Shown: positions 23,257 to 33,737, numbered from the stretch's first letter. The stretch is 64,000 nucleotides of DNA from an uncultured Spirochaetales bacterium (GCA_964567895.1 CAZMOX010000002.1:6307-70306); one strand, 5' to 3'. Program-made: numbers and translations. The notes: generated by a model not told the origin, from the letters alone.

Positions 23257-23898
23257 TTGAGGTACTCTGTTTCTATGCAAAATCATGATTCTAAAGAAGC
23301 CAGACAGGGAATACCTCTTATAATGTGGCTTCTTCTTATAGTAGTTATAGCAGGAAGTTTTCTCTATAGTCTACCAAAAATAATACGGAATTATCGGGAA
23401 TCAGGTCTGGCAGATACGGTCTCTGCATATAGAAGCAGAGAATCTGACACTGAAGCTGTTCAAACTGAAACTGCTCAAATCTATTTTGTTCTGCAGGATG
23501 TTAACACACATGAACTTATCTGTGATGCTGTTTCTGTTACTGTATCCTCTCCGGTAAACCTGAACAGCCTTCTGGAACTCCTTATAGCTGGACCGGACTT
23601 ATCTGTACTCTCCAAAGGATTCATCTCTTTTATTCCGGAAAGCACAAAACTTCTCGGCAGCAGAATTGTTAACCATGCTGCATATATTGACCTCTCTACC
23701 GATTTTTATACTGATAGCAATTCCAATCCTCAAGCCGCAGAGCTGGCCGTACGTCAAATTATCAAGACAGCTCTTTCTTACGAATTAGTAGAGGATGTTA
23801 TTATATTGATTGATGGTGAGTCATATATTAGTTCCCGGAGCACTAGTTCAAGTTTTTCTCCATACAAAAAATCTCCAGGACGACGTTTTTCATCATGA
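23257..23898 (+). CDS. Hypothetical membrane-anchored protein (single N-terminal TM; possible GerMN-like domain). The 3' end overlaps tlyA convergently.
   Basis: TM IPLIMWLLLIVVIAGSFLY. No recognisable catalytic motif. Low-complexity S-rich tail. Confidence 0.45.
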   Translation: MRYSVSMQNHDSKEARQGIPLIMWLLLIVVIAGSFLYSLPKIIRNYRESGLADTVSAYRSRESDTEAVQTETAQIYFVLQDVNTHELICDAVSVTVSSPVNLNSLLELLIAGPDLSVLSKGFISFIPESTKLLGSRIVNHAAYIDLSTDFYTDSNSNPQAAELAVRQIIKTALSYELVEDVIILIDGESYISSRSTSSSFSPYKKSPGRRFSS

Positions 23899-24614
23899 AT
23901 AAGTGCCAGAAATTCTCTGTTTCCTTTTCTTCCCAGGATTGGTGAAGCAACTATGCGAACCACGCCCGCTCCTTCCTCAGAAAGCTCGCTGCAGGTTGCG
24001 GTAAGTATTTCAAAAAGTAGTTCATTATTTGAGACTATCCCATTAAAATCCTGAATATAGCTATCAATTTCAAACTGCGGTTTAATCAGTGCAATCATCC
24101 ATGCTTCCCGGGTTAAAGAGAGAATTTTTTCAGCTGCTCCCCGTATTGAACGAAATGATAAATCGGCAACAGCCGCATGTGGGCGCGGATCCAGTTCACC
24201 AACCTCCATAATATTGGTTCGTTCCATAACAACTACTTTCGGGTGTGTCCGCAGGCTGTAGTCCAGTTGGTTATAGCCTACATCAACTGCATAGACCCTG
24301 AGCGCCCCCTCCTGCAAAAGGCAATCGGTAAAGCCGCCGGTTGAGGAACCAGCATCAATCATGATTTTTTCAGCAGGAGAAATCCCCCACTCCAGAAGAG
24401 CATGATTTAATTTGACGCCACCTCTTGAAACATACTTATCCCGCACAATTTCCAGCACAGCCGTTATTGGCACACGTTCTTTTGGATTAGCTATCCGGCC
24501 TCCGTTTACAGAGACTTCCCTGCATAGTATATAGGAGTAGAGTCTCTCTTTTGGAATATCCGGGTATTTTTTAAACAGCAGCTCAAGGAGAGGCAGGGAC
24601 TTTCGGGCTTGCAT
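23778..24614 (-). CDS. tlyA: TlyA-family hemolysin / rRNA 2'-O-methyltransferase (S4 domain + FtsJ methylase)
   Basis: S4-like N-terminus, IDAGSSTGGFTDCLLQEGA SAM motif, FtsJ-type fold pattern. Confidence 0.8.
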   Translation of the reverse strand: MQARKSLPLLELLFKKYPDIPKERLYSYILCREVSVNGGRIANPKERVPITAVLEIVRDKYVSRGGVKLNHALLEWGISPAEKIMIDAGSSTGGFTDCLLQEGALRVYAVDVGYNQLDYSLRTHPKVVVMERTNIMEVGELDPRPHAAVADLSFRSIRGAAEKILSLTREAWMIALIKPQFEIDSYIQDFNGIVSNNELLFEILTATCSELSEEGAGVVRIVASPILGRKGNREFLALIHDEKRRPGDFLYGEKLELVLRELIYDSPSINIITSSTNS

Positions 24615-24848
24615 AATTTATATTGAACCTATCATAACTTGTAATCCCATATCACTACCCATTCTCCTGATTGATTCCAGATCCTGTTTCTTAAGGGATT
24701 TTACCTCATCAAACTTATATTGCATACCTAATCCCGGTATTACAGGAATCCTCACAATCACATTTATATTCGATTCATTCAGCCGGTTTCATTATTTTAA
24801 ATCACACATTGTCATTTGTCAAATATTCGGCAATATGTAATCTAATTA

Positions 24849-26261
24849 CTAGTGAGTTAATGGCTCGAAAGATTTCATTTCGGGTCCATTCACCATTTTT
24901 TCGTTTATATATACATCAGATCTGAATTGGGCTATTCTCTCCGCGGAAGACGCATTATGAGCCGCCTGCTCCAGCGTTGTATCTCCTGTTGAAATTACAC
25001 CGTACCCTGCAACAACACAGCAGCCTTTATATTTTCTTAACATATCCAGTATCGGGTTTTCCGGGCTCCGGTTATTCAGTTGATACAAGTCAACAAGACC
25101 CAGCCTTGGGTTAAGATAAATTGCTTCTGCATCAATAGGTGCTATGACCGGATGATTATCCGGTTCGTAAGGAATATCTATTTTCTCGCCTGCCAGCACC
25201 CCCTCTCCATATTTTTCTGCCAGTATTACCATACCTTCAGCTACAGCCATTGGGTTTGTAGTAATCATACAGGCATTCTGAATAGTATTCCGGTAAATAA
25301 GTTTATGCAGAAACAAATCAACCGGGTCTTCATCCCTGAACTCCAGGTCAACCCTCAGAAGAGGAAAATCCATCCCATCAGGAACGGCAGACATCGGGCA
25401 GTATATCATCTCATTTGCAGCTGTTTTCTGACTCATTGAACCAGTTCCATATGCCCCGATTTGAATTCTATAGTTATAGCTGAGTCTTTCTGAAAAATCG
25501 GAGACCATAATTTTATCTTCTACATCCCTTCTGCCCAGTATTGATTCATCAAGAAGATGCGGTGTAACAGGAAAGAAGCTCTCCCTGCCGAGCTCATGTA
25601 TCCTGCGCTGGGCAGGAACAATGGGGAATCCTCTGCGTCTTACATACAGAGCCAAAGTTGCACTGTGCTCCAGTGTACTAAGTCTATAGAGACAATCCTC
25701 AAGGGATGACCCTCTGGCAAAGGGGCCATGCCCGCGGACAATTGTCAGGTGATTCTCTTTCAGATATTCAGGAAGTCTCTCCTCCATCTCAGGAGACCCT
25801 ACCGGTTGTTCATAACTTCCTACCTGCACAGAGCCTACAACATGGCTTCCAAAGAGATCTATCGGTGAAAACCGGAATTCCTCCCTGCCTTTCTTATCCA
25901 ATCCCAAATATTCCAGAAAAATTTCTTTATCTTTCTGATCAAAAGAAATTATAGTAGTGTTCATAAAATGCCCGTGGATAACGGCACGTATTCCTTCAAT
26001 CTTCAATAGTTTCCTATGAATAGTGGATTCTGTAGACCCCCTGGCATCTCCCCAGCCAACATCAGAAAATCGGATCGGCACGATATCCCGCGATACCAGA
26101 CTACCAATCTGAGAACCACTGGATGTTATATAAAAATAATCATTATCATCAGAGTCACGTTGGGAAATGTTCCCGCTATGCGTGTTATTTGCATTAACTA
26201 CTCCCAGGGCATTACCCAACCGTTTGAAGTCTGCATAGATTTTCTCCTGTTTGCTGTTCAT
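24849..26261 (-). CDS. Tandem class II aldolase/adducin-domain protein. The first domain is intact; the second domain lacks the HxH metal ligands.
   Basis: Domain 1: NTHSGNIS, E...AVIHGHF, IVRGHGPFARGSSLEDCLYRLSTLE. Domain 2: GSMSQK, ...NACMITTNPMAVA (no His pair), VVAGYGVISTGDTTLEQAAHN. Confidence 0.7.
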   Translation of the reverse strand: MNSKQEKIYADFKRLGNALGVVNANNTHSGNISQRDSDDNDYFYITSSGSQIGSLVSRDIVPIRFSDVGWGDARGSTESTIHRKLLKIEGIRAVIHGHFMNTTIISFDQKDKEIFLEYLGLDKKGREEFRFSPIDLFGSHVVGSVQVGSYEQPVGSPEMEERLPEYLKENHLTIVRGHGPFARGSSLEDCLYRLSTLEHSATLALYVRRRGFPIVPAQRRIHELGRESFFPVTPHLLDESILGRRDVEDKIMVSDFSERLSYNYRIQIGAYGTGSMSQKTAANEMIYCPMSAVPDGMDFPLLRVDLEFRDEDPVDLFLHKLIYRNTIQNACMITTNPMAVAEGMVILAEKYGEGVLAGEKIDIPYEPDNHPVIAPIDAEAIYLNPRLGLVDLYQLNNRSPENPILDMLRKYKGCCVVAGYGVISTGDTTLEQAAHNASSAERIAQFRSDVYINEKMVNGPEMKSFEPLTH

Positions 26262-28288
26262 GTTGTTACCTGCTCTTTCTGTACAAATTCTTCCATACCC
26301 AACCTTCTCAAGGTCTCATTCTCTGGTATGCCATTATCATTCCATCCCATAGCTCTATAGTATTCTTTATGCATTCTGCTAAACACTTCACGGTTACACA
26401 AAACATCTTCTCCCTCAACTTGGGTGGGAATTTTAAAGAATCTATCCGGAAGCCAGTCATCTTTATCAGTTTTCCCGCATCGGATATTAAACAGTCTCTC
26501 AAGAGATACCGTTCTCTGTGCAAACTGTAACAGTGAACCGGAACTTAAATTATCACCTGTTACAGCATTAATTATAGGAGCATATTCATCAAGGGAGATA
26601 GCAAATGAGCTGTACACACATACCCCTATGATATCAATAGCTGTACCTTTTAAAGTGGCATTTTTGGAGATCAGGGGTGTGCCTTCAATACGGTTTCCCG
26701 GCCACTCAGCATATCCTGCACAGTAGCTCAATGCAGCAGTATACCCTCCTTCCAGATGACAGCCACCCCGATTACTCATCTCATAACAGAGAGCCTGGCT
26801 GAAAGAAGTACGGGGGTCATAAGCCGGAAGTTCCTGCTTTTTAACAGTCATAGATAATTCCGAATGTCCATATCTCGTGCAAAAGCGATAGGATCCCATA
26901 GCCAGATACTTTCCAATACCTTCTCCATTTCCAATCAGCTTAACCAAATCAATAAGATACTCTTTATTTCCAAAACGGGGTTCTCCATAATTTTCAACAA
27001 AACTTCCAAGATCGCGTAGGAAAAGCTTTTCACCCTCTTCCAGATTCTCTTTACTGTCTGTGATAGAAGTATACATTTCCACAAATGATGCAATTGTTGA
27101 ACCTAGAGAAATGGTATCCATCCCATATCTGTTTGCAAGATAGTTCACTCTTGCTATGAGGGGAAGATCGTAAATTGACAGATTTGCACCCAAAAGAGCA
27201 ACTGTCTCAAATTCGGGTCCTTCACCCTTATCAATCACAACTCCACTACTATTCTTTACGGTAGTTACTCGTTTACAAGTAATCGGACAGTTATAACAGG
27301 TATCTTTTTTGACCTCTATGGTATCGGAATCCGAACTGGCTATTTGCGCGTAACTTCTTAATGCTTCCCCATCAATACGTTTGATGTCGGAAAGGTCGTG
27401 TTTTGTATCAATCATATTATTGTGGATAAGCTGATCAAAATTATTAACCATCCCTGCAAGACTCAGTGATCCCATCGAGGCCAAAGAACCATAGTGCTGC
27501 TCTTTTCTGGTAATTTTCCCTACATCCAGTTTAACCTTCGCCTTGTAGACCGAGCCGCTCTTATTTTTAATATCCAGCTCTTTTTCATTATTCACGTTGA
27601 TTTTACTATTTTTATCCGGTAAAACGGCAACTGCAATCAAATTCTTTGATCCGAAGACAGCTCCTGCCCCCCCTCTTCCAAAGGTACGGCCTTTATCACT
27701 CATTACATTTGCAAAAAGCGAGAGCTTTTTTCCTGCTTCACCGATACTCAGTACCTGCATTTTATCAGGCAGTTTTTCTTTAAAGTGCCTCTGAATCTCT
27801 TCAGAATTCATCTGCTCAAACTCAGCAGCATCTACTATTTCAGTAGAATTGTTTTTAATAATAAGGTAGACAGGTTTCTCCGACCTTCCTTCAATAATCA
27901 GCATATCATATCCGGTCCGTTTAAAATTAACCCCCCAATAACCACCGGAGTTAGCACTTCCATACCCTCCCGTTAGTGGAGATTTGAAATTCATATGAAC
28001 GCGGCCGGATGTGGGCATTCTCGTCGCTGTTGATGGGGCGGTAGAAATGATAACTACATTATCAGGGGAAAGCGAATCAACTTCTTTAAAAGAGTTTTCA
28101 TACCTGCCTGATGTATCAAGTTTCAGGAAATGCCGATACAAATAGGCAACCCCAAGTCCTCTGTTTCCATGAAAAAGATGTGCTATTTCCAGATCAAGTT
28201 TTTCTTCCCGTACTTCTTTGCTCCCAAGGTTTATAATCAGGATTTTTCCCATATATCCCCCGGGTAATTTCTTACTGTCATTCTCCAT
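26258..28288 (-). CDS. aor: Aldehyde:ferredoxin oxidoreductase family (tungstopterin enzyme)
   Basis: AOR N-terminal domain (GKILIINLGSKEVREEKLD). Fe-S ligand motif DTCYNCPITC (CxxCxxxC). 676 aa. Confidence 0.75.
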   Translation of the reverse strand: MENDSKKLPGGYMGKILIINLGSKEVREEKLDLEIAHLFHGNRGLGVAYLYRHFLKLDTSGRYENSFKEVDSLSPDNVVIISTAPSTATRMPTSGRVHMNFKSPLTGGYGSANSGGYWGVNFKRTGYDMLIIEGRSEKPVYLIIKNNSTEIVDAAEFEQMNSEEIQRHFKEKLPDKMQVLSIGEAGKKLSLFANVMSDKGRTFGRGGAGAVFGSKNLIAVAVLPDKNSKINVNNEKELDIKNKSGSVYKAKVKLDVGKITRKEQHYGSLASMGSLSLAGMVNNFDQLIHNNMIDTKHDLSDIKRIDGEALRSYAQIASSDSDTIEVKKDTCYNCPITCKRVTTVKNSSGVVIDKGEGPEFETVALLGANLSIYDLPLIARVNYLANRYGMDTISLGSTIASFVEMYTSITDSKENLEEGEKLFLRDLGSFVENYGEPRFGNKEYLIDLVKLIGNGEGIGKYLAMGSYRFCTRYGHSELSMTVKKQELPAYDPRTSFSQALCYEMSNRGGCHLEGGYTAALSYCAGYAEWPGNRIEGTPLISKNATLKGTAIDIIGVCVYSSFAISLDEYAPIINAVTGDNLSSGSLLQFAQRTVSLERLFNIRCGKTDKDDWLPDRFFKIPTQVEGEDVLCNREVFSRMHKEYYRAMGWNDNGIPENETLRRLGMEEFVQKEQVTT

Positions 28289-28332
28289 CTATCTATCCTT
28301 CTATTTTAATTTCCAGTTTGGTTCTCTTTTTT

Positions 28333-29730
28333 CTATAAAAGCTCTAACACCCTCTTCTGCATCTTCGGTACTGCAGAGATTTGCAAAAGATTTAGATCAG
28401 GCTGATTCCTTCTCAACTGAATACCTATATTACCCAGAGAAGTAGCTTCTTCGGGACCGGCAATTATATCCTTTCCGGTTAAGTTGGAGGTAATCTGATT
28501 CAGATTGCTATTTTTACAGCCACCGCCAACGATATGGATAACCTTGTGTTCTGTATCAGTAAGTTTCTCAATCTTTTCAATACTGTCCCGGTAGCTGCAG
28601 GCAAGAGATAGGTATACCGCTGCCAAAACCTCCTCAATAGTAAGGTTCCTGTTTGTATTGGCAGAAATAGCATCCGGCATATTTACCGGGTTAAAGAAAC
28701 TACTATCATTGGGATCGAATATCGGAATCTCACTTCTACAGCTGTTAGCCATACTGACTAACTCATCCCAGGAATATTTGTGCCCGCCTTTCTCCATCTC
28801 CTTTTTTATGTTTTGGAGAATATGCATGCCGGCAGAATTCTTCAAAAATGTTATTGTGCCTAAGGCTCCACCCTCATTTGCAAAGCCTTCTGTATATACA
28901 TCGGAATTGATAACTGGTTCTTCCAGCTCCGTCCCAATCAAAGACCAAGTACCCGAAGAGATAAAAAGGAATTTCTCTCTCTCTGCAGGAACTGAAACAA
29001 CCGCAGATGCCGTATCGTGAGAGGGAACACTGACAAATGGGCACACATTTATTTTTAGAAAATCTGCAATATCCAGTTTCAGATCTCCGTAAACATCTCC
29101 ATGCTTCGTGAGAGGAGGAAGGAGAGAATCGTTTAGATTGAAATGATTAATCACTTCAGAAGAGTAGGTCCAGTCTCTCATATTCAAAATCTGGGTAGTA
29201 CTTGCAATTGTTGGTTCTCCACAGATCCTGCCGGTAAAAAGCCAGGCTAACAGGTCGGGAATCAGGAGTAATTGCTTTGCTTCTTTATAATACTCCGGTA
29301 GATACTCCTTTATTCCAATAAGCTGATAGAGCGAATTCATTGAATGCTCAAGTATACCCGTTGCATTAAATAATTTTTCCTTTTCCTTTTGCGAAAGAGT
29401 ATTGAGAATGATCTCTCCAAAAGTGTTCCGATAGCACAGGGGGTTGCCTAAAAGCTGCTGAGATTCACCTAGGAGTCCGAAATCTATCCCCCAGGTTGAT
29501 ATTCCCACCGATTCCACCGGGCCAAATTCAAGATAGCATTTTTGAAGACCTCTTTGTAATTCACGGAAAATATACAAAATATCCCAGTAAAATATGCCAT
29601 TAACCTTCACCGCCTCATTTGGAACCTGGTGTACAAGCTCTGCTTTTATCCTCTCTCCATCAAAAAGTCCGGATAAAACCCGGATTGAAGAGTTCCCGCA
29701 ATCAAAGGCCACATAATTCTTTATTCCCAT
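28333..29730 (-). CDS. FGGY-family carbohydrate kinase, rhamnulokinase/fuculokinase-like
   Basis: N-terminus NYVAFDCGNSSIRVLSG resembles RhaB (VAVDLGASSGRVML). Two actin-like ATPase halves. 465 aa. Confidence 0.75.
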   Translation of the reverse strand: MGIKNYVAFDCGNSSIRVLSGLFDGERIKAELVHQVPNEAVKVNGIFYWDILYIFRELQRGLQKCYLEFGPVESVGISTWGIDFGLLGESQQLLGNPLCYRNTFGEIILNTLSQKEKEKLFNATGILEHSMNSLYQLIGIKEYLPEYYKEAKQLLLIPDLLAWLFTGRICGEPTIASTTQILNMRDWTYSSEVINHFNLNDSLLPPLTKHGDVYGDLKLDIADFLKINVCPFVSVPSHDTASAVVSVPAEREKFLFISSGTWSLIGTELEEPVINSDVYTEGFANEGGALGTITFLKNSAGMHILQNIKKEMEKGGHKYSWDELVSMANSCRSEIPIFDPNDSSFFNPVNMPDAISANTNRNLTIEEVLAAVYLSLACSYRDSIEKIEKLTDTEHKVIHIVGGGCKNSNLNQITSNLTGKDIIAGPEEATSLGNIGIQLRRNQPDLNLLQISAVPKMQKRVLELL

Positions 29731-30389
29731 TACTTTCCCTGCCCGTAACGATTACGGGCAAAATCCTGCATAGCTGCAATATCATCGGGATTAATAAGCC
29801 GTGGAGTCCTTCCCATTGATTGTGCAAGTATGTAAATGTGAGCAGTTTTCTCTACAACATGAATTGTCTTAAGCGTAGTTTCAAAATCTGCACCTACACA
29901 GATACTCCCATGATTGGGTATAATAACTGCATTTCTGTGCCCCAACCCTTTTACGACATTTACAGCCAGCTCCGGAGTGCCGGGAAGAGCATACTCACAA
30001 TTTATTATTTTATCCCCCACCAACTGAACAAAATCCTCGCCAATTCCCGGAATATCTTCATCGATAACTCCAAAAACACTTGAGTAGACGGGATGATAGT
30101 GCATTACACAATTAACATCTTTTCGGGCATTCATTATAGCAATATGAAAGTTGTATTCTATTGAAGGTTTTCGATGTCCATCGACAACTTCTCTTTCAGC
30201 ACTCATTACAACGACATCATCTTCCCGGATTTCAGGATAACGCATTCCACTTGGCTTGATATAAAACAGATTTGTTTCGGGATCTCTGATGCTCAGATTT
30301 CCCCAGGTTCCCACTGTTAATCCTTGTTTATATAATTTTAGCCCACCATCAACAATGGCTTGTTTTAGCTTTTTCTTTACTAATGACAA
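29730..30389 (-). CDS. Class II aldolase (L-fuculose-1-phosphate aldolase-like)
   Basis: GNLSIRDPE, E...HIAIMNARKDVNCVMHYHP (HxH), IIPNHGSICVGADFETTLKT. 219 aa. Confidence 0.8.
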   Translation of the reverse strand: MSLVKKKLKQAIVDGGLKLYKQGLTVGTWGNLSIRDPETNLFYIKPSGMRYPEIREDDVVVMSAEREVVDGHRKPSIEYNFHIAIMNARKDVNCVMHYHPVYSSVFGVIDEDIPGIGEDFVQLVGDKIINCEYALPGTPELAVNVVKGLGHRNAVIIPNHGSICVGADFETTLKTIHVVEKTAHIYILAQSMGRTPRLINPDDIAAMQDFARNRYGQGK

Positions 30390-30411
30390 AACTGGATCTC
30401 CTGTATATTAT

Positions 30412-30475
30412 TTATTGTAACAATAAACAAACTTTCTGTTACTTTTGTATCATTTTTATGTTATCATAGTAACAT
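30412..30475. promoter_or_regulatory. Candidate operator sites in the divergent deoR/operon promoter region: a 15-bp perfect palindrome TTATTGTAACAATAA (30412-30426) and ATGTTA-N6-TAACAT (30458-30475)
   Basis: The palindromes lie immediately upstream of the AGGAGA RBS of the aldolase gene and ~60-110 bp upstream of the deoR start. Confidence 0.45.
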
Positions 30476-30538
30476 ACAAAAAATACGGCGTCAATATTTT
30501 ATTGTGTAAATTATGCAATTACCTACAGGGGATATAAG

Positions 30539-31315
30539 ATGAGCATTCGTAAAAACAGGGTTGAAACGATTCAAAAGATAGTCAGGGATTCTGCATCTAT
30601 AACTATAAAAGATCTGGCAGAAGAACTTGCTGTATCGAAGATGACTATAAGAAGGGATCTGGACCAAATTTTGAGCAACCCGAAAATTCAATTCATTAGA
30701 GGAATGCTTATATACAACCCAATACTTGATGCTTCTGACGAGTCTCATTATTCTGTTATTTCAGCATCAACACTGAATAAGGAAGCAAAAAAAAGAATAG
30801 TTTCCAAGGCACAATCGCTGCTTGAACCAAATGATATAATTCTTATAGATGCTGGATCAACCACAGAGATGCTTGCCAGAATTCTTCCGAAGGAGCTCGA
30901 GCTTGATGTGATTTGCTTTAGCCTGAATATACTAAATACTATCCTCAAGTTCGGGAACTGTAATATTACGTTGCCGGGAGGAAAACTCCACTGCAGTTCC
31001 ATGGTTTTTCAAAGCAGAGAAGGAATTGAGCTATTGAAAAAAACAAGAGTAAAAAAAGCTTTTATATCTGCTTATGGTGTAGATATCAGACTGGGAGTAA
31101 CCTGTTCTGCGGACTTTGAAAGTGAGCTGAAAATGACAGCTATCAACACGGCGGAACAACGGATTCTTCTAGTGGATTCTTCAAAGTTTGGGAAAGTAAC
31201 CAATTTTCATTTTGCTGATCTGGAAAATTTTGATACCATTATCACGGACAAATTACTGTCCAAAGAACTAGCAAAAGAGATACGAAGCAGAGGTATAACG
31301 CTGTTTATGATGTGA
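30539..31315 (+). CDS. DeoR-family transcriptional regulator
   Basis: N-terminal HTH (ITIKDLAEELAVSKMTIRRDLDQI) and C-terminal DeoR sugar-phosphate-binding domain. 258 aa. Divergent from the catabolic operon. Confidence 0.85.
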   Translation: MSIRKNRVETIQKIVRDSASITIKDLAEELAVSKMTIRRDLDQILSNPKIQFIRGMLIYNPILDASDESHYSVISASTLNKEAKKRIVSKAQSLLEPNDIILIDAGSTTEMLARILPKELELDVICFSLNILNTILKFGNCNITLPGGKLHCSSMVFQSREGIELLKKTRVKKAFISAYGVDIRLGVTCSADFESELKMTAINTAEQRILLVDSSKFGKVTNFHFADLENFDTIITDKLLSKELAKEIRSRGITLFMM

Positions 31316-31320
31316 GCTGA

Positions 31321-32118
31321 CTATACTCCCATTTCTTTTGAAAATCTTACAATTTTCTTTGCCAGTCCTTTATCCGAATTTATAGTAACTACAACCCCTT
31401 TTAAGGCTGCTGGTGTATCAGCAATTTGATTCTTTAACGGGATTTGGGTCATTTGACGCTTGATTGAAATTTCCGGCTCACTGCCAATTACACTCATCAC
31501 CGGTCCGGTCATCCCGATGTCTGTGATATAAGCAGTACCTTTGGGAAAAATACGCTCATCAGCCGTTTGAATATGTGTATGGGTACCCACGACTGCTGCT
31601 ACCGTACCATCAAGGTAAAGAGCCAGTGCTTCCTTCTCTTCAGTAGATTCAGCATGAAAATCAATAAGTATACAGGTATTCGGCCGTTTCACCTGCTGTA
31701 CAAGTTCTTTACCTATCCGAAAAGGACAGTCAATGGTACTCATATGCATCCGCCCCTGAAGGTTGATAACGACTACCTCAATTCCCTTAACCGTTATCGC
31801 AGCTACGCCTTTTCCGGGGACACCCGGGGGATAGTTAGCAGGCCTGATTATCTTCCGTGTGCCGTTCAGCATTGGATAAATCTCATTCTTCTGCCAAATA
31901 TGGTTTCCCGAGGTGATAATATCCACACCCGCTGCAAATATAGCATCGGCAATTTCAGGAGTTATGCCAAATCCATCAGAAGCATTTTCTCCATTTGCAA
32001 TTACCACATCGGCACGATAATCTTTAATTAACTGTTTTAATCCCATAAAAATAGCCCTGTTCCCAGGTTGACCACAAATATCACCTAAAAATAGGGCTTG
32101 TATATCTTTTCCTGACAT
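31321..32118 (-). CDS. ymdB: YmdB-like metallophosphoesterase (2',3'-cyclic nucleotide phosphodiesterase family, TIGR00282-like)
   Basis: LFLGDICGQPG, GNHIWQK, and the calcineurin-like pattern. Conserved position immediately downstream of rny, as in Bacillus. Confidence 0.8.
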   Translation of the reverse strand: MSGKDIQALFLGDICGQPGNRAIFMGLKQLIKDYRADVVIANGENASDGFGITPEIADAIFAAGVDIITSGNHIWQKNEIYPMLNGTRKIIRPANYPPGVPGKGVAAITVKGIEVVVINLQGRMHMSTIDCPFRIGKELVQQVKRPNTCILIDFHAESTEEKEALALYLDGTVAAVVGTHTHIQTADERIFPKGTAYITDIGMTGPVMSVIGSEPEISIKRQMTQIPLKNQIADTPAALKGVVVTINSDKGLAKKIVRFSKEMGV

Positions 32119-32140
32119 AATTCCATCTTTTACCTGCTGA

Positions 32141-32204
32141 TTTCACAGCTTACTTGCTGATTTCACAGCTTACCTGCTGATTTCACAGCTTACTTGCTGA
32201 TTTA
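32141..32204. repeat. 20-bp tandem repeat TAC[C/T]TGCTGATTTCACAGCT x3 plus a degenerate 4th copy. It fills the rny-ymdB spacer and overlaps the rny stop.
   Basis: Direct reading: tacctgctgatttcacagct / tacttgctgatttcacagct / tacctgctgatttcacagct / tacttgctgatttatcagcg. Confidence 0.9.
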
Positions 32205-33737
32205 TCAGCGGGCGTATTCCACAACCCGTGTTTCACGGATTATTGTAACTTTTATTCTTCCAGGATAACGCATCTCTGCCTCAATTCTTTTGGCTATCTC
32301 TTTAGCAAGTTCTTTGGCTTTATCATCACTTACAGATTCATAGTTAACAAGAATCCGCAGTTCACGACCAGCCTGAATTGCATAAGCTTTATCAACACCT
32401 TCAAAACTTTCGGATATCCGCTCAAGATCCTCAAGCCGTTTCACATAATTATTCAGTGTTTCTCTTCTTGCCCCAGGTCGTGATGCTGAAATTGCATCTG
32501 CAATCTGTACAATTACAGACTCTATGCAACTAGGTTCAACATCATTATGATGGGACAGGATTGCATTAATTACACGTGGATCCTCACCAAGTTTTTTTGC
32601 CATTTCCGCACCCATTTCAGCGTGGTTAGCATCACTCTCAGTTTCAACTCCCTTACCGATATCATGCAGTAGTCCGCCCCGTTTTGCTATTTCACGGTCT
32701 GCGCCAATTTCTGCTGCAATCATACCCGAAAGGATGGCAACTTCTTTTGCATGATACAATACATTTTGTCCGTAAGAAGTACGAAAATAGAGCCTTCCCA
32801 GTATTTTCACAGTTTCCTGACTCATACTATGGATTCCAAGATCAAAGAGTATCTTTTCACCCTCTTCCATAATAGTTTTTGAGATCTCCTTTGTCACCTT
32901 CTGAACTACTTCTTCAATTCTTGCCGGATGTATTCTTCCATCCTGAATCAGCCGGCCCAGTGCAACCTTGGCAATCTCTTTTCTTACCGGATCAAAACAG
33001 GAGATAACAACGGCTTCCGGTGTATCATCAATGATAACATCAACACCAGTCAATGTTTCCAAAGTTCTGATATTTCTCCCTTCCCGGCCAATAATACGGC
33101 CCTTCATCTCGTCGCTCGGTAGACTGACTGAACTAATAGTCACCTCTGAGCTAACATCAGTAGCAATACGCTGAATGGATGTTATAATAATATCACGTGC
33201 CAGTTTATCAGCCTTAAGTTGAGCTTCCTGTTCGATTTTATTAACAACAACCTGTGCGTCATGTTTGGCGTCATTCAACATAGATTCCATGATAATTTGT
33301 TTCGCTTCATCAGAACTCATTCCGGCAATTCTTTCTAATTCTGACAGCCATTTTGCCTCTTCAGCAGTCAGTTTTGTTTCCCTAAGTGATAATTTTTCCT
33401 CTCGGTTTGATAGCTGTTTTCGACCATTTTCTAATTCAGTCTGCTTCCTTTCTAGATTTTCTTCTTTCTGCAGCAGTCTTCTTTCCAGCCGCTGCAATTC
33501 ACTTCTTCTTTCTCTCGTCTCACGTTCCTGCTGTTGTCTCTCTTTCAGCAGTTGATCTTTTGTTTCAAGTAGAAGCTCTTTCTTTTTTGCTTCTGCTTCT
33601 TTTATCGCTTCCTGATTCAAACGCGCAGCTTTCTGTTCAACTGAAGTCAGTTGAAACCTGGCATAGACCAAACGAAATATCCAACCTAGAATCAAACCTG
33701 AGAGAAGAAATAGTACTGAAAATATATACCGCGGCAT
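32205..33737 (-). CDS. rny: Ribonuclease Y
   Basis: N-terminal TM, coiled-coil, KH domain (GREGRNIRTLETLTGV), HD domain (LLHDIGK). 510 aa. Confidence 0.92.
   Translation of the reverse strand: MPRYIFSVLFLLSGLILGWIFRLVYARFQLTSVEQKAARLNQEAIKEAEAKKKELLLETKDQLLKERQQQERETRERRSELQRLERRLLQKEENLERKQTELENGRKQLSNREEKLSLRETKLTAEEAKWLSELERIAGMSSDEAKQIIMESMLNDAKHDAQVVVNKIEQEAQLKADKLARDIIITSIQRIATDVSSEVTISSVSLPSDEMKGRIIGREGRNIRTLETLTGVDVIIDDTPEAVVISCFDPVRKEIAKVALGRLIQDGRIHPARIEEVVQKVTKEISKTIMEEGEKILFDLGIHSMSQETVKILGRLYFRTSYGQNVLYHAKEVAILSGMIAAEIGADREIAKRGGLLHDIGKGVETESDANHAEMGAEMAKKLGEDPRVINAILSHHNDVEPSCIESVIVQIADAISASRPGARRETLNNYVKRLEDLERISESFEGVDKAYAIQAGRELRILVNYESVSDDKAKELAKEIAKRIEAEMRYPGRIKVTIIRETRVVEYAR

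What the first reader, a model, noticed from the sequence alone, without database searches (positions are those of the whole stretch)
24849..31315. DeoR-controlled catabolic operon pairing ketose kinase and class II aldolases with a tungsten-type aldehyde:ferredoxin oxidoreductase
Four co-oriented, tightly packed genes lie divergent from a DeoR regulator. They are a FucA-like class II aldolase (219 aa), a rhamnulokinase-like FGGY kinase, an AOR-family enzyme (CxxCxxxC, 676 aa), and a 470-aa tandem double aldolase-II protein, with 0-45 bp gaps and 4-bp overlaps.

Kinase plus class II aldolase is the classic route in which ketose-1-phosphate is cleaved to DHAP plus an aldehyde (L-lactaldehyde from fuculose-1-P or rhamnulose-1-P). 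Known pathways dispose of that aldehyde with NAD-dependent lactaldehyde dehydrogenase (AldA) or reductase (FucO).

Here an AOR sits exactly where that enzyme would be. This suggests ferredoxin-linked oxidation of the aldehyde to the acid, which would be an anaerobic, energy-conserving variant that I am not aware of being described for deoxyhexose or ketose catabolism. No isomerase or transporter is present in the operon, so the actual substrate is open.
Basis: partly seen in the sequence, partly recalled or inferred. Interest (0 to 1): 0.78.

Follow-up and report, generated by a model that had tools for sequence, protein, structure and literature searches.

The report
Aldolase–tungsten oxidoreductase pair for deoxy-sugars
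A tungsten-type aldehyde oxidoreductase and an unusual double-domain aldolase are encoded side by side in many uncultured anaerobes, usually inside rhamnose or fucose clusters, which suggests an undescribed ferredoxin-linked way of turning the toxic lactaldehyde intermediate into lactate.

Summary
The five genes are present as described. The AOR keeps all its cofactor motifs. The 470-aa protein ("A470") is a tandem of two class II aldolase folds, and only the N-terminal one keeps the catalytic metal site.

The conserved unit is AOR followed by A470, not the kinase plus the FucA-like aldolase. A complete AOR lies directly upstream of A470 in 64 of 72 non-redundant loci from at least 9 phyla, all of them MAGs or metagenome contigs. 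All 15 AORs at ≥43 % identity carry A470 downstream.

The pair sits in L-rhamnose (RhaA) or L-fucose (FucI) clusters with a rhamnulokinase-like kinase. LutABC, LarA or a GlcD-like dehydrogenase often follows. No AldA or FucO occurs in any of 142 loci, and RhaD occurs in one. A second, distant AOR group pairs with a single-domain aldolase of the same type in the same contexts.

The best reading is ketose-1-phosphate to DHAP plus L-lactaldehyde (A470), then L-lactate (AOR), then pyruvate.

The window's own copy is derived. A ~790-bp deletion removed a crotonase gene and the kinase's C-terminus, and no isomerase or transporter is nearby, so its substrate stays open. No biochemistry exists.

The parts
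24849..26261 (-). A470: 470-aa tandem class II aldolase-fold protein. The N-domain is a catalytically intact PRK08660-type aldolase. The C-domain is a degenerate duplicate.
26258..28288 (-). AOR/WOR-family pyranopterin oxidoreductase, 676 aa, stand-alone ('Class I') type with clade-specific insertions.
   Evidence: AFOR_N and AFOR_C. 349 bits to 9g7j and 327 bits to 1aor, with CxxCxxxC, EGPEFE, DTIS, NRGGCH and D..G.C aligned. 4-nt overlap with A470. No Fe-S subunit or ferredoxin gene nearby.
28333..29730 (-). Rhamnulokinase-like FGGY kinase, C-terminally truncated (465 aa versus 488 aa in L063).
   Evidence: FGGY_N/C. TIGR02627 at 346.6 bits, cutoff 528, versus fuculokinase at 121 bits. 33 % identity to EcRhaB. 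Truncation shown.
28301..28399 (-). Deletion scar: a 21-nt microhomology junction (28379-28399) plus the 3' remnant of an enoyl-CoA hydratase-family gene.
   Evidence: blastn against L063 gives two blocks with ~790 bp missing. The remnant translates to ...FANLCSTEDAEEGVRAFIEKREPNWKLK*, which matches the C-terminus of L063 ECH.
29730..30389 (-). FucA-like single-domain class II aldolase, 219 aa, with an intact Zn/Glu/phosphate site. It is a lineage-specific accessory gene.
   Evidence: Aldolase_II 3.5e-47. PRK06833 FucA at 158.6 bits, cutoff 264. 30 % identity to EcFucA. Active-site columns conserved. Present in only 3 of 64 pair loci.
30390..30538 (.). Divergent AT-rich promoter/operator region between the aldolase and DeoR genes.
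   Evidence: Promoter-like hexamers on both strands. Inverted repeats of 17 nt (30447-30463 / 30470-30486) and 11 nt (30408-30418 / 30420-30430). Function not tested.
30539..31315 (+). DeoR-family regulator, divergent from the operon.
   Evidence: HTH_DeoR and DeoRC. Below every NCBIfam equivalog cutoff. A DeoR|small-aldolase module also lies next to AOR-A470 in L003 and L031 (39 % and 51 % identity).

Best explanation
The AOR and the 470-aa protein form a conserved two-gene module. It serves the last steps of phosphorylative 6-deoxyhexose (L-rhamnose / L-fucose) catabolism in anaerobes.

Proposed steps:
1. An isomerase (RhaA or FucI) and a rhamnulokinase-like FGGY kinase make the ketose-1-phosphate.
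2. The N-terminal domain of A470, a Zn-type class II aldolase, cleaves it to DHAP plus L-lactaldehyde.
3. The pyranopterin/[4Fe-4S] AOR oxidises the aldehyde to L-lactate and passes electrons to a ferredoxin encoded elsewhere.
4. In many genomes LutABC, or LarA with a GlcD-like dehydrogenase, takes lactate on to pyruvate.

The module therefore replaces RhaD/FucA plus AldA/FucO. It is the ferredoxin-linked counterpart of the NAD-dependent RhaEW fusion.

A470 is a fused pseudo-dimer. Its C-domain has lost the metal site but is strongly conserved. It probably completes the N-domain's active site in trans and may dock the AOR.

Shown here: gene content, adjacency, domain and active-site conservation, and absence of the conventional enzymes. 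Inferred: the substrates, the direction of the AOR reaction, the acceptor, the metal, and any physical complex.

The window carries a derived spirochaete copy: DeoR | FucA-like aldolase - truncated kinase - AOR - A470. Its sugar is not defined.
For: Adjacency:
- tblastn finds an AOR (54-82 % identity) directly upstream of A470 on the same strand in ~51 of 57 genome loci from at least 9 phyla.
- The combined count is 64 of 72, plus 3 cut by contig ends.
- In the reverse test, 15 of 15 AORs at ≥43 % identity have A470 downstream, while ~52 of 65 AORs at 33-39 % identity have no aldolase next to them.

Context among the 64 loci: RhaB-like kinase 31, FucI 12, RhaA 9, lactate genes 14. RhaA (643 > 572), FucI (1097 > 775) and LutB (543 > 445) pass NCBIfam equivalog cutoffs. 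LarA lies directly downstream of A470 in L036 and L037.

Typical orders: FGGY-U479-RhaA | AOR-A470-LutA-LutB-LutC (L030, L033, L034); FucI-FGGY-AOR-A470 (L027-L029).

Conventional enzymes absent: AldA 0, FucO 0, RhaD 1 of 142 loci.

Independent recurrence: ~598-aa AORs of another clade are followed by ~203-aa PRK08660-type aldolases next to RhaA, RhaI, FucI, LutBC, LarA or GlcD-like genes.

Catalytic competence: the A470 N-domain keeps FucA's phosphate site, Glu73 and His92/94/155 equivalents. The AOR keeps all cofactor motifs.

Precedent: RhaEW couples the aldolase to lactaldehyde oxidation, and lldEFG is co-regulated with it (PMC3870299). AOR-family enzymes oxidise lactaldehyde in vitro (PMC11725836). 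One is implicated in vivo in propanediol oxidation (PMC13541210).
Against: - No biochemical, genetic or expression data exist. Every genome carrying the pair is a MAG or metagenome contig.
- About 45 % of pair loci show no deoxyhexose gene within the DNA available. Many contigs are short, but L014 and L024 (Vecturithrix) have long flanks and still show none.
- The window has no isomerase or transporter in 64 kb. Its kinase is truncated and is frameshifted in a second sample.
- Its closest relatives carry a crotonase-family gene between kinase and AOR. Other spirochaetes add a glycyl-radical enzyme. The model explains neither.
- One aldolase type would have to accept both L-rhamnulose-1-P and L-fuculose-1-P, because the A470 tree does not split by context.
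- The window also encodes a separate FucA-like aldolase, so the division of labour there is unclear.
Confidence: 0.65

Rival explanations
1. The chemistry is the same, but the sugar and aldehyde differ, at least in the window's spirochaete lineage. The kinase and aldolases could act on another ketose: a pentulose giving glycolaldehyde, a hexulose giving glyceraldehyde, or a modified deoxy sugar. In the GRE-containing loci the AOR could instead oxidise propionaldehyde made from 1,2-propanediol.
For: - The window has no isomerase in 64 kb.
- The kinase is below the rhamnulokinase cutoff, 347 versus 528 bits.
- Spirochaete loci carry ECH, a PFL2-3-family GRE with its activase, LacI and CUT2-type ABC transporters, but no RhaA or FucI.
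- FucI-family enzymes also handle D-arabinose (established knowledge).
Against: - Wherever an isomerase is present it is RhaA, RhaI or FucI at equivalog level.
- The downstream genes are specific for lactate (LutABC, LarA), not for glycolate or glycerate.
- A470 in the window is 60-67 % identical to those in RhaA and FucI clusters.
Confidence: 0.2
2. A470 is not an aldolase. It could be another class II aldolase-superfamily enzyme (dehydratase, epimerase or decarboxylase, like MtnB, AraD or OtnC). Alternatively the AOR runs in the reductive direction, acid to aldehyde, and feeds an aldol condensation.
For: - The N-domain also hits MtnB and OtnC models weakly, at 42-54 bits.
- AORs are reversible in vitro (established knowledge).
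Against: - RhaA and FucI clusters containing the pair lack any other aldolase, so the pathway would be broken.
- The best structural and sequence matches are FucA enzymes, 30 % identity to 2fk5.
- The catalytic Glu and His triad typical of aldolases are conserved.
- No MtnK/MtnA or OtnK/OtnI neighbours were seen.
Confidence: 0.08
3. The AOR is a generic aldehyde-detoxifying enzyme, and its position next to sugar genes has no pathway meaning.
For: - Characterised Class I WORs are mostly broad-spectrum detoxifiers (PMC13328260).
- A MAG paper proposed exactly this for lactaldehyde (PMC9324843).
Against: - Gene order is conserved in 64 of 72 loci across at least 9 phyla, and in 15 of 15 in the reverse test.
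- The same pairing recurs in a second AOR clade.
- AldA and FucO are completely absent from these clusters.
- Lactate-oxidising genes lie immediately downstream.
Confidence: 0.07
4. In this particular window the operon is a decaying remnant that no longer functions as a sugar pathway.
For: - A ~790-bp deletion removed the kinase C-terminus and the ECH gene.
- A 2-nt frameshift variant of the kinase occurs in an otherwise identical contig from another sample.
- The transporter genes present in L063 and L008 are replaced.
Against: - AOR, A470, Ald219 and DeoR are intact full-length ORFs with conserved active sites.
- The kinase still covers model positions 1-433 of 454.
- The 2-nt difference lies in an (AG)5 repeat and could be an assembly slip.
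Confidence: 0.15

Closest known systems
RhaEW (YuxG) bifunctional L-rhamnulose-1-phosphate aldolase / L-lactaldehyde dehydrogenase (Rodionova et al. 2013, PMC3870299)
   Same: A non-RhaD class II aldolase is tightly coupled to the enzyme that oxidises L-lactaldehyde to L-lactate. It lies inside rha clusters, with lldEFG (= lutABC) in the same regulons. In RhaEW, aldolase turnover depends on the dehydrogenase being active.
   Different: RhaEW is a single polypeptide whose oxidising half is an NAD-dependent short-chain dehydrogenase. Here the oxidising enzyme is a separate pyranopterin/[4Fe-4S] AOR. The aldolase is a tandem-duplicated PRK08660-type protein with no SDR domain. The pair also occurs in fucose clusters.
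E. coli rhaBAD / fucPIK-fucAO with AldA or FucO
   Same: The upstream logic is the same: isomerase, FGGY kinase, class II aldolase, giving DHAP plus L-lactaldehyde. RhaA and FucI orthologues are 50-66 % identical to the E. coli enzymes.
   Different: No RhaD or FucA orthologue, AldA or FucO occurs in the clusters. The kinase is RhaB-like even next to FucI. The aldehyde would be oxidised with ferredoxin as acceptor, not NAD, and is not reduced to propanediol.
Class I tungsten oxidoreductases (PfAOR, PfGAPOR, BmWOR, CsWOR87; Putumbaka et al. 2026, PMC13328260)
   Same: A single large subunit with AFOR_N and AFOR_C, one [4Fe-4S] cluster and conserved pterin ligands. Like GAPOR, it would hold a dedicated place in a sugar pathway.
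   Different: It is about 70 residues longer than PfAOR, with conserved clade-specific insertions. It is obligately co-encoded with a non-redox partner, the aldolase. That classification paper mentions no such partner and no link to deoxy sugars.
NCBIfam NF006413 / PRK08660 'aldolase' (uncharacterised single-domain class II aldolases)
   Same: It is the best family match for the A470 N-domain. The ~203-aa aldolases next to the second AOR clade score 189-202 bits against it, with a cutoff of 203.
   Different: A470 is a fusion of such a domain with a degenerate second copy. It scores only 123.5 bits.

Membership tests
AOR/WOR family (aldehyde:ferredoxin oxidoreductase) | AFOR_N plus AFOR_C domains above the Pfam gathering scores | tested here: met
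   205.2 bits (cutoff 29.8) and 325.1 bits (cutoff 27).
AOR/WOR family (aldehyde:ferredoxin oxidoreductase) | Four Cys ligands of the [4Fe-4S] cluster, and pterin/active-site residues (PfAOR C288/C291/C295/C494, E313, D338, H448, D489) | tested here: met
   CYNCPITC, EGPEFE, DTIS, NRGGCH and DIIGVC align with the 1aor and 9g7j motifs. They are invariant in alignment A3.
AOR/WOR family (aldehyde:ferredoxin oxidoreductase) | Tungsten (rather than Mo) in the cofactor, and ferredoxin as acceptor | not testable with these tools
   Sequence does not discriminate W from Mo. The window has no tup or moa genes. No ferredoxin ORF in 75 loci. No Moco/Tuco riboswitch.
WOR Class I (Putumbaka et al. 2026) | Large subunit only, with no co-encoded Fe-S or flavin subunits | tested here: met
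   The neighbours are an aldolase and a kinase only. No Fer4-type ORFs next to the pair. Definition taken.
Class II (Zn) aldolase superfamily - A470 N-domain | Aldolase_II fold, His triad, catalytic Glu and phosphate-binding GN.S / SG motifs | tested here: met
Class II (Zn) aldolase superfamily - A470 C-domain | His triad and catalytic Glu | tested here: not met
NF006413 PRK08660 aldolase (equivalog) | Score at or above 203 bits | tested here: not met
   A470 scores 123.5 bits. The single-domain AOR-linked aldolases score 189-202 bits.
Rhamnulokinase RhaB (TIGR02627 equivalog) | Score at or above 527.95 bits over the full length | tested here: not met
   346.6 bits, model positions 1-433 of 454. 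The C-terminus is lost by deletion. It is still far closer to RhaB than to FucK (121 bits). Kinases in RhaA and FucI clusters score 337-517 bits.
L-fuculose-phosphate aldolase FucA (219-aa protein) | NCBIfam equivalog cutoff | tested here: not met
   PRK06833 at 158.6 bits against 264; TIGR01086 at 102.7 against 400. The active site is intact. It is FucA-like, not a demonstrated orthologue.
RhaEW | Aldolase_II domain fused to a short-chain dehydrogenase domain | tested here: not met
   No adh_short domain in A470 or its neighbours. It is a functional analogue only.
DeoR family regulator | HTH_DeoR plus DeoRC sensor domain | tested here: met
   36.8 and 143.8 bits. No equivalog assignment. Regulation of the operon was not tested.

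The most novel reading that the evidence does not exclude
AOR and A470 form a physical aldolase-oxidoreductase complex that channels L-lactaldehyde. The catalytically dead but highly conserved C-domain of A470 and the clade-specific ~70-residue insertions of the AOR would be the docking surfaces. This would be a ferredoxin-reducing, tungsten-dependent counterpart of RhaEW. It would let strict anaerobes oxidise 6-deoxyhexoses fully to pyruvate with low-potential electrons, without excreting propanediol or building microcompartments.
Probability: 0.3. Interest if true: 0.8.

Novelty: new variant of a known kind. Interest (0 to 1): 0.66.

Why it matters
[quoted passage not shown] This result would give a dedicated catabolic role to one widespread clade, and probably to a second.

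It would add a third fate for L-lactaldehyde in fucose and rhamnose metabolism, alongside NAD-linked oxidation and reduction to propanediol or microcompartment processing. That fate suits sulfate reducers, planctomycetes, acidobacteria and spirochaetes that degrade pectin, fucoidan and other methyl-pentose polymers in anoxic sediments.

It also defines a new tandem aldolase family found only in uncultured lineages. It implies that deoxy-sugar turnover in such habitats depends on tungsten or molybdenum. Gene-centric annotation currently misses this, because the cluster appears to have no aldolase and no aldehyde dehydrogenase.

Tried and rejected
- **Riboswitch:** an Rfam scan of 23500-32500 at E ≤ 1 found nothing, so there is no Moco/Tuco riboswitch.
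- **Promoters and terminators:** counts were at chance level, so co-transcription rests on spacing only.
- **Internal duplication by sequence:** hhalign of the N-half against the C-half found nothing. The duplication had to be shown by structure.
- **A470 specialisation by sugar:** an NJ tree of 68 sequences groups by taxon, not by RhaA or FucI context.
- **Ferredoxin genes beside the pair:** none in 75 loci.
- **Tungsten, cofactor, isomerase or transporter genes in the rest of the window:** only housekeeping genes were found, plus a GalK-like gene at 399-1547.
- **Literature:** searches combining AOR with class II aldolase, fuculose, rhamnose or lactaldehyde found no description of the module. 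A search for the clade label 'WOR83' was uninformative. The WOR classification supplements mention aldolase only as dihydroneopterin aldolase in the passages shown.
- **One call failed on bad coordinates**.
- **DHAP-shunt / MtnB-like role** was rejected because no MtnK or MtnA neighbours were seen.
- **Not possible:** a complex prediction (structure jobs exhausted), assignment of the AOR to a numbered WOR clade, and identification of any cultured carrier.

Full report
**Observation**

All five ORFs are at the stated coordinates.
- Pfam gives AFOR_N and AFOR_C for the 676-aa protein, FGGY_N and FGGY_C for the 465-aa protein, Aldolase_II for the 219-aa and 470-aa proteins, and HTH_DeoR plus DeoRC for the divergent regulator.
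- The four minus-strand genes are separated by a 1-nt overlap, a 44-nt gap and a 4-nt overlap.
- Consensus terminators are not enriched (8 found, 6.4 expected).
- The flanks are housekeeping genes: TlyA, PtsI, Der, YmdB and RNase Y. The rest of the window holds no isomerase, sugar transporter or cofactor genes.
- The organism is an uncultured spirochaete. The closest named relatives are Spirochaetales, Spirochaetaceae and Spirochaetia MAGs at 80-84 % identity.

**What is conserved**

Relatives of the AOR (55-60 % identity) and of the 470-aa protein, here called A470 (60-67 % identity), occur in very different phyla.

Three first look-ups already showed the two genes together while everything else changed.

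A scan of one genome per species with an A470 alignment returned 57 loci, all MAGs. They come from Spirochaetota, KSB1, Ignavibacteriota/Bacteroidota, Planctomycetota, Desulfobacterota, SAR324, Acidobacteriota, Vecturithrix, Neomarinimicrobiota and others. In about 51 of them an AOR lies directly upstream of A470 on the same strand.

The reverse experiment used 80 AOR-centred metagenome loci.
- All 15 AORs at ≥43 % identity have A470 downstream.
- About 52 of the 65 AORs at 33-39 % identity have no aldolase next to them.

Pooled, 64 of 72 non-redundant A470 loci have a complete AOR upstream. Three more are cut by contig ends. The five true exceptions are the most divergent A470 homologues.

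By contrast the FucA-like 219-aa aldolase is present in only 3 of the 64. The conserved unit is therefore AOR plus A470.

**Context**

Clustering all neighbouring ORFs and annotating representatives gave these recurrent families:
- L-rhamnose isomerase and L-fucose isomerase
- rhamnulokinase-like FGGY kinases
- LutA, LutB and LutC
- LarA lactate racemase
- CUT1- and CUT2-type sugar ABC transporters
- GH28
- a ~479-aa polytopic membrane protein with no family assignment

RhaA, FucI and LutB exceed NCBIfam equivalog cutoffs. They are 50-66 % identical to the E. coli enzymes.

Typical gene orders:
- FGGY-U479-RhaA | AOR-A470-LutA-LutB-LutC in planctomycetes
- FucI-FGGY-AOR-A470 in Desulfobacterales
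- AOR-A470-FucI-LutABC-FGGY-ABC transporter
- AOR-A470-RhaA-FGGY with LutAB nearby in Acidobacteriota

Among the 64 pair loci, 31 have the kinase, 21 an isomerase (12 FucI, 9 RhaA) and 14 a lactate gene. The median locus is only 16.6 kb.

E. coli AldA and FucO find nothing in any of 142 loci, and RhaD finds one. These clusters would therefore lack both an aldolase and a lactaldehyde-disposing enzyme, unless A470 and the AOR fill those roles.

**A470**

The N-domain keeps FucA's phosphate-binding residues, Glu73 and the His92/94/155 equivalents (E78, H96, H98, H178), all invariant. The C-domain has Thr, Asn and Tyr at the His positions and no Glu.

At the column of FucA Tyr113, the single-domain AOR-linked aldolases read PIDxEG. 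By established knowledge of FucA, Tyr113 is a residue supplied in trans by the neighbouring subunit. The A470 C-domain keeps that Glu (invariant E379), while the N-domain has a variable hydrophobic residue there.

This complementary loss is what a fused pseudo-dimer with one composite active site would show. This is an inference.

The C-domain is found only in 413-477-aa tandem proteins: 35 representative clusters among 1.84 billion.

A470 sequences group by taxon, not by RhaA or FucI context. The same enzyme type therefore serves both sugars, which both yield L-lactaldehyde.

**The AOR**

It aligns end to end with solved AORs (349 bits to 9g7j, 327 bits to 1aor). All [4Fe-4S] and pterin motifs are conserved.

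It is about 70 residues longer than PfAOR, and the insertions are conserved within the clade.

No Fe-S or flavin subunit and no ferredoxin gene accompanies it. It is therefore a Class I WOR in the 2026 scheme. The metal cannot be inferred from sequence.

**A second, simpler version**

About a dozen of the distant AORs (~595-600 aa) are followed, often with overlapping stop and start codons, by a ~203-aa single-domain aldolase. That aldolase scores 189-202 bits against PRK08660, the best family for the A470 N-domain.

These pairs also sit next to RhaA, RhaI, FucI, FGGY, LutBC and LarA.

L115 reads GlcD-like dehydrogenase - AOR - aldolase - LarA - FucA-like aldolase - L-rhamnose isomerase.

Long AORs go with tandem aldolases and canonical-length AORs with single-domain ones. 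This hints at co-adaptation.

**The window's own copy**

Compared with L063 (AOR 97 % identical), the window lacks about 790 bp across a 21-nt microhomology.
- The last ~37 codons of the kinase and almost all of an enoyl-CoA hydratase-family gene are gone.
- The kinase ORF now ends in 13 out-of-frame residues of that gene's remnant.
- Homology with L063 starts exactly at the kinase start codon. Upstream, L063 and L008 have ABC transporter genes where the window has DeoR and the FucA-like aldolase.

A contig from another sample is identical over 9,160 nt except for a 2-nt slip in an (AG)5 repeat that frameshifts the kinase.

The ECH gene (L007, L008, L018, L062, L063) and a PFL2-3-family glycyl-radical enzyme with its activase (L003, L009, L018, L031, L076) are spirochaete-specific neighbours that I cannot explain. 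The substrate in this lineage therefore stays open.

**Mechanism proposed**

1. Isomerase and RhaB-like kinase make the ketose-1-phosphate.
2. The A470 N-domain cleaves it to DHAP plus L-lactaldehyde.
3. The AOR oxidises the aldehyde to L-lactate, reducing a ferredoxin encoded elsewhere.
4. LutABC, or LarA with a GlcD-like enzyme, converts lactate to pyruvate.

Shown: gene content, adjacency, active-site conservation and absence of the conventional enzymes. Inferred: substrates, direction, acceptor, metal and any complex.

**Comparison and novelty**

The closest analogue is RhaEW, an aldolase fused to an NAD-dependent lactaldehyde dehydrogenase. Its aldolase activity requires the dehydrogenase, and lldEFG is co-regulated with it.

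AOR-family enzymes can oxidise lactaldehyde. ElWOR1 does so in vitro. An AOR next to Adh1 is implicated during propanediol oxidation in Desulfofundulus.

One MAG paper remarks that AORs might detoxify lactaldehyde from rhamnose.

The June 2026 WOR classification covers 92 clades, of which five have a defined role. Its main text mentions no aldolase partner, rhamnose, fucose or lactaldehyde.

I found no description of the AOR-aldolase module within the searchable library, which omits most subscription journals. I rate it a new variant of a known kind.

**Rivals**

The rivals considered are a different sugar or aldehyde in the spirochaete lineage, a non-aldolase role for A470 or a reductive AOR, generic detoxification, and decay of the window's operon. 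They are listed with evidence in their own section. None accounts as well for the conserved pairing, the RhaA/FucI/Lut context and the missing conventional enzymes.

Noticed in passing
window 28301-28399 (and the FGGY 3' end at 28333-28380): Deletion scar. Relative to L063 (AOR 97 % identical), ~790 bp are missing across a 21-nt microhomology. This removed an enoyl-CoA hydratase-family gene and the kinase's native C-terminus. The ECH 3' remnant is still readable in its own frame.
   Followed up: yes
window 28983-28984 versus L001 position 3176: A contig from another sample is identical over 9,160 nt except for a 2-nt deletion in an (AG)5 repeat inside the kinase gene, which frameshifts it. This is either a real slipped-strand polymorphism or pseudogenisation, or an assembly slip.
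   Followed up: partly
L047:6155-7594 (+); also L030:4745-6337, L033, L034, L039, L046, L049, L056, L010, L075: A ~479-aa polytopic membrane protein with 10 or more hydrophobic segments and no Pfam or NCBIfam match. It always lies beside RhaA and/or the AOR-A470 pair. It is a candidate for a new rhamnose permease family.
   Followed up: partly
L104:5995-8399, L115:999-3397, L118, L129, L133, L110 (metagenome loci): A second, distant AOR clade (~598 aa, 33-37 % identity) is directly followed by a ~203-aa PRK08660-type single-domain aldolase, again in rhamnose, fucose or lactate gene contexts. L082 has an intermediate form: a 620-aa AOR plus a 440-aa tandem aldolase.
   Followed up: partly
L003:4744-7155, L031:2714-5125, L018, with activases in L009 and L076: Spirochaete versions of the pair sit beside a glycyl-radical enzyme (TIGR01774 PFL2-3 family, 706 bits; below every equivalog cutoff) and its activase, plus LacI and a CUT2 ABC transporter. 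No kinase or isomerase is nearby. The role is unexplained.
   Followed up: partly
L007:412-1188, L008, L018, L062, L063:4263-5039: An enoyl-CoA hydratase/crotonase-family gene (258 aa) lies immediately next to AOR-A470 in the window's closest relatives. The lactaldehyde model assigns it no role.
   Followed up: partly
L051:6849-11365 and L058:6859-11401: The most divergent A470 homologues (50-53 % identity) lack an AOR. They are preceded by a 606-aa TPR protein and an unannotatable 421-aa protein. L058 is still followed by LutABC.
   Followed up: no
L036:6692-7969, L037:11432-12703, L115:3369-4685: A LarA-family nickel-pincer lactate racemase gene lies directly downstream of the aldolase. L115 also has a GlcD-like FAD dehydrogenase. 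This suggests L-lactate is racemised and oxidised as D-lactate in some lineages.
   Followed up: partly
L025 (Olavius sp. associated proteobacterium Delta 1): The sulfate-reducing Delta-1 symbiont of a gutless marine worm carries MalK - FGGY - AOR - A470. Existing metaproteomes of that symbiosis could test expression.
   Followed up: no
window 24794-24822 (-) and 23257-23898 (+): A near-consensus promoter (TTGACA-17-TAAAAT, 11 of 12 matches) lies just downstream of A470 and probably drives tlyA. A 213-aa plus-strand ORF (Germane domain in the L001 annotation) overlaps the 3' end of tlyA by ~120 nt.
   Followed up: no
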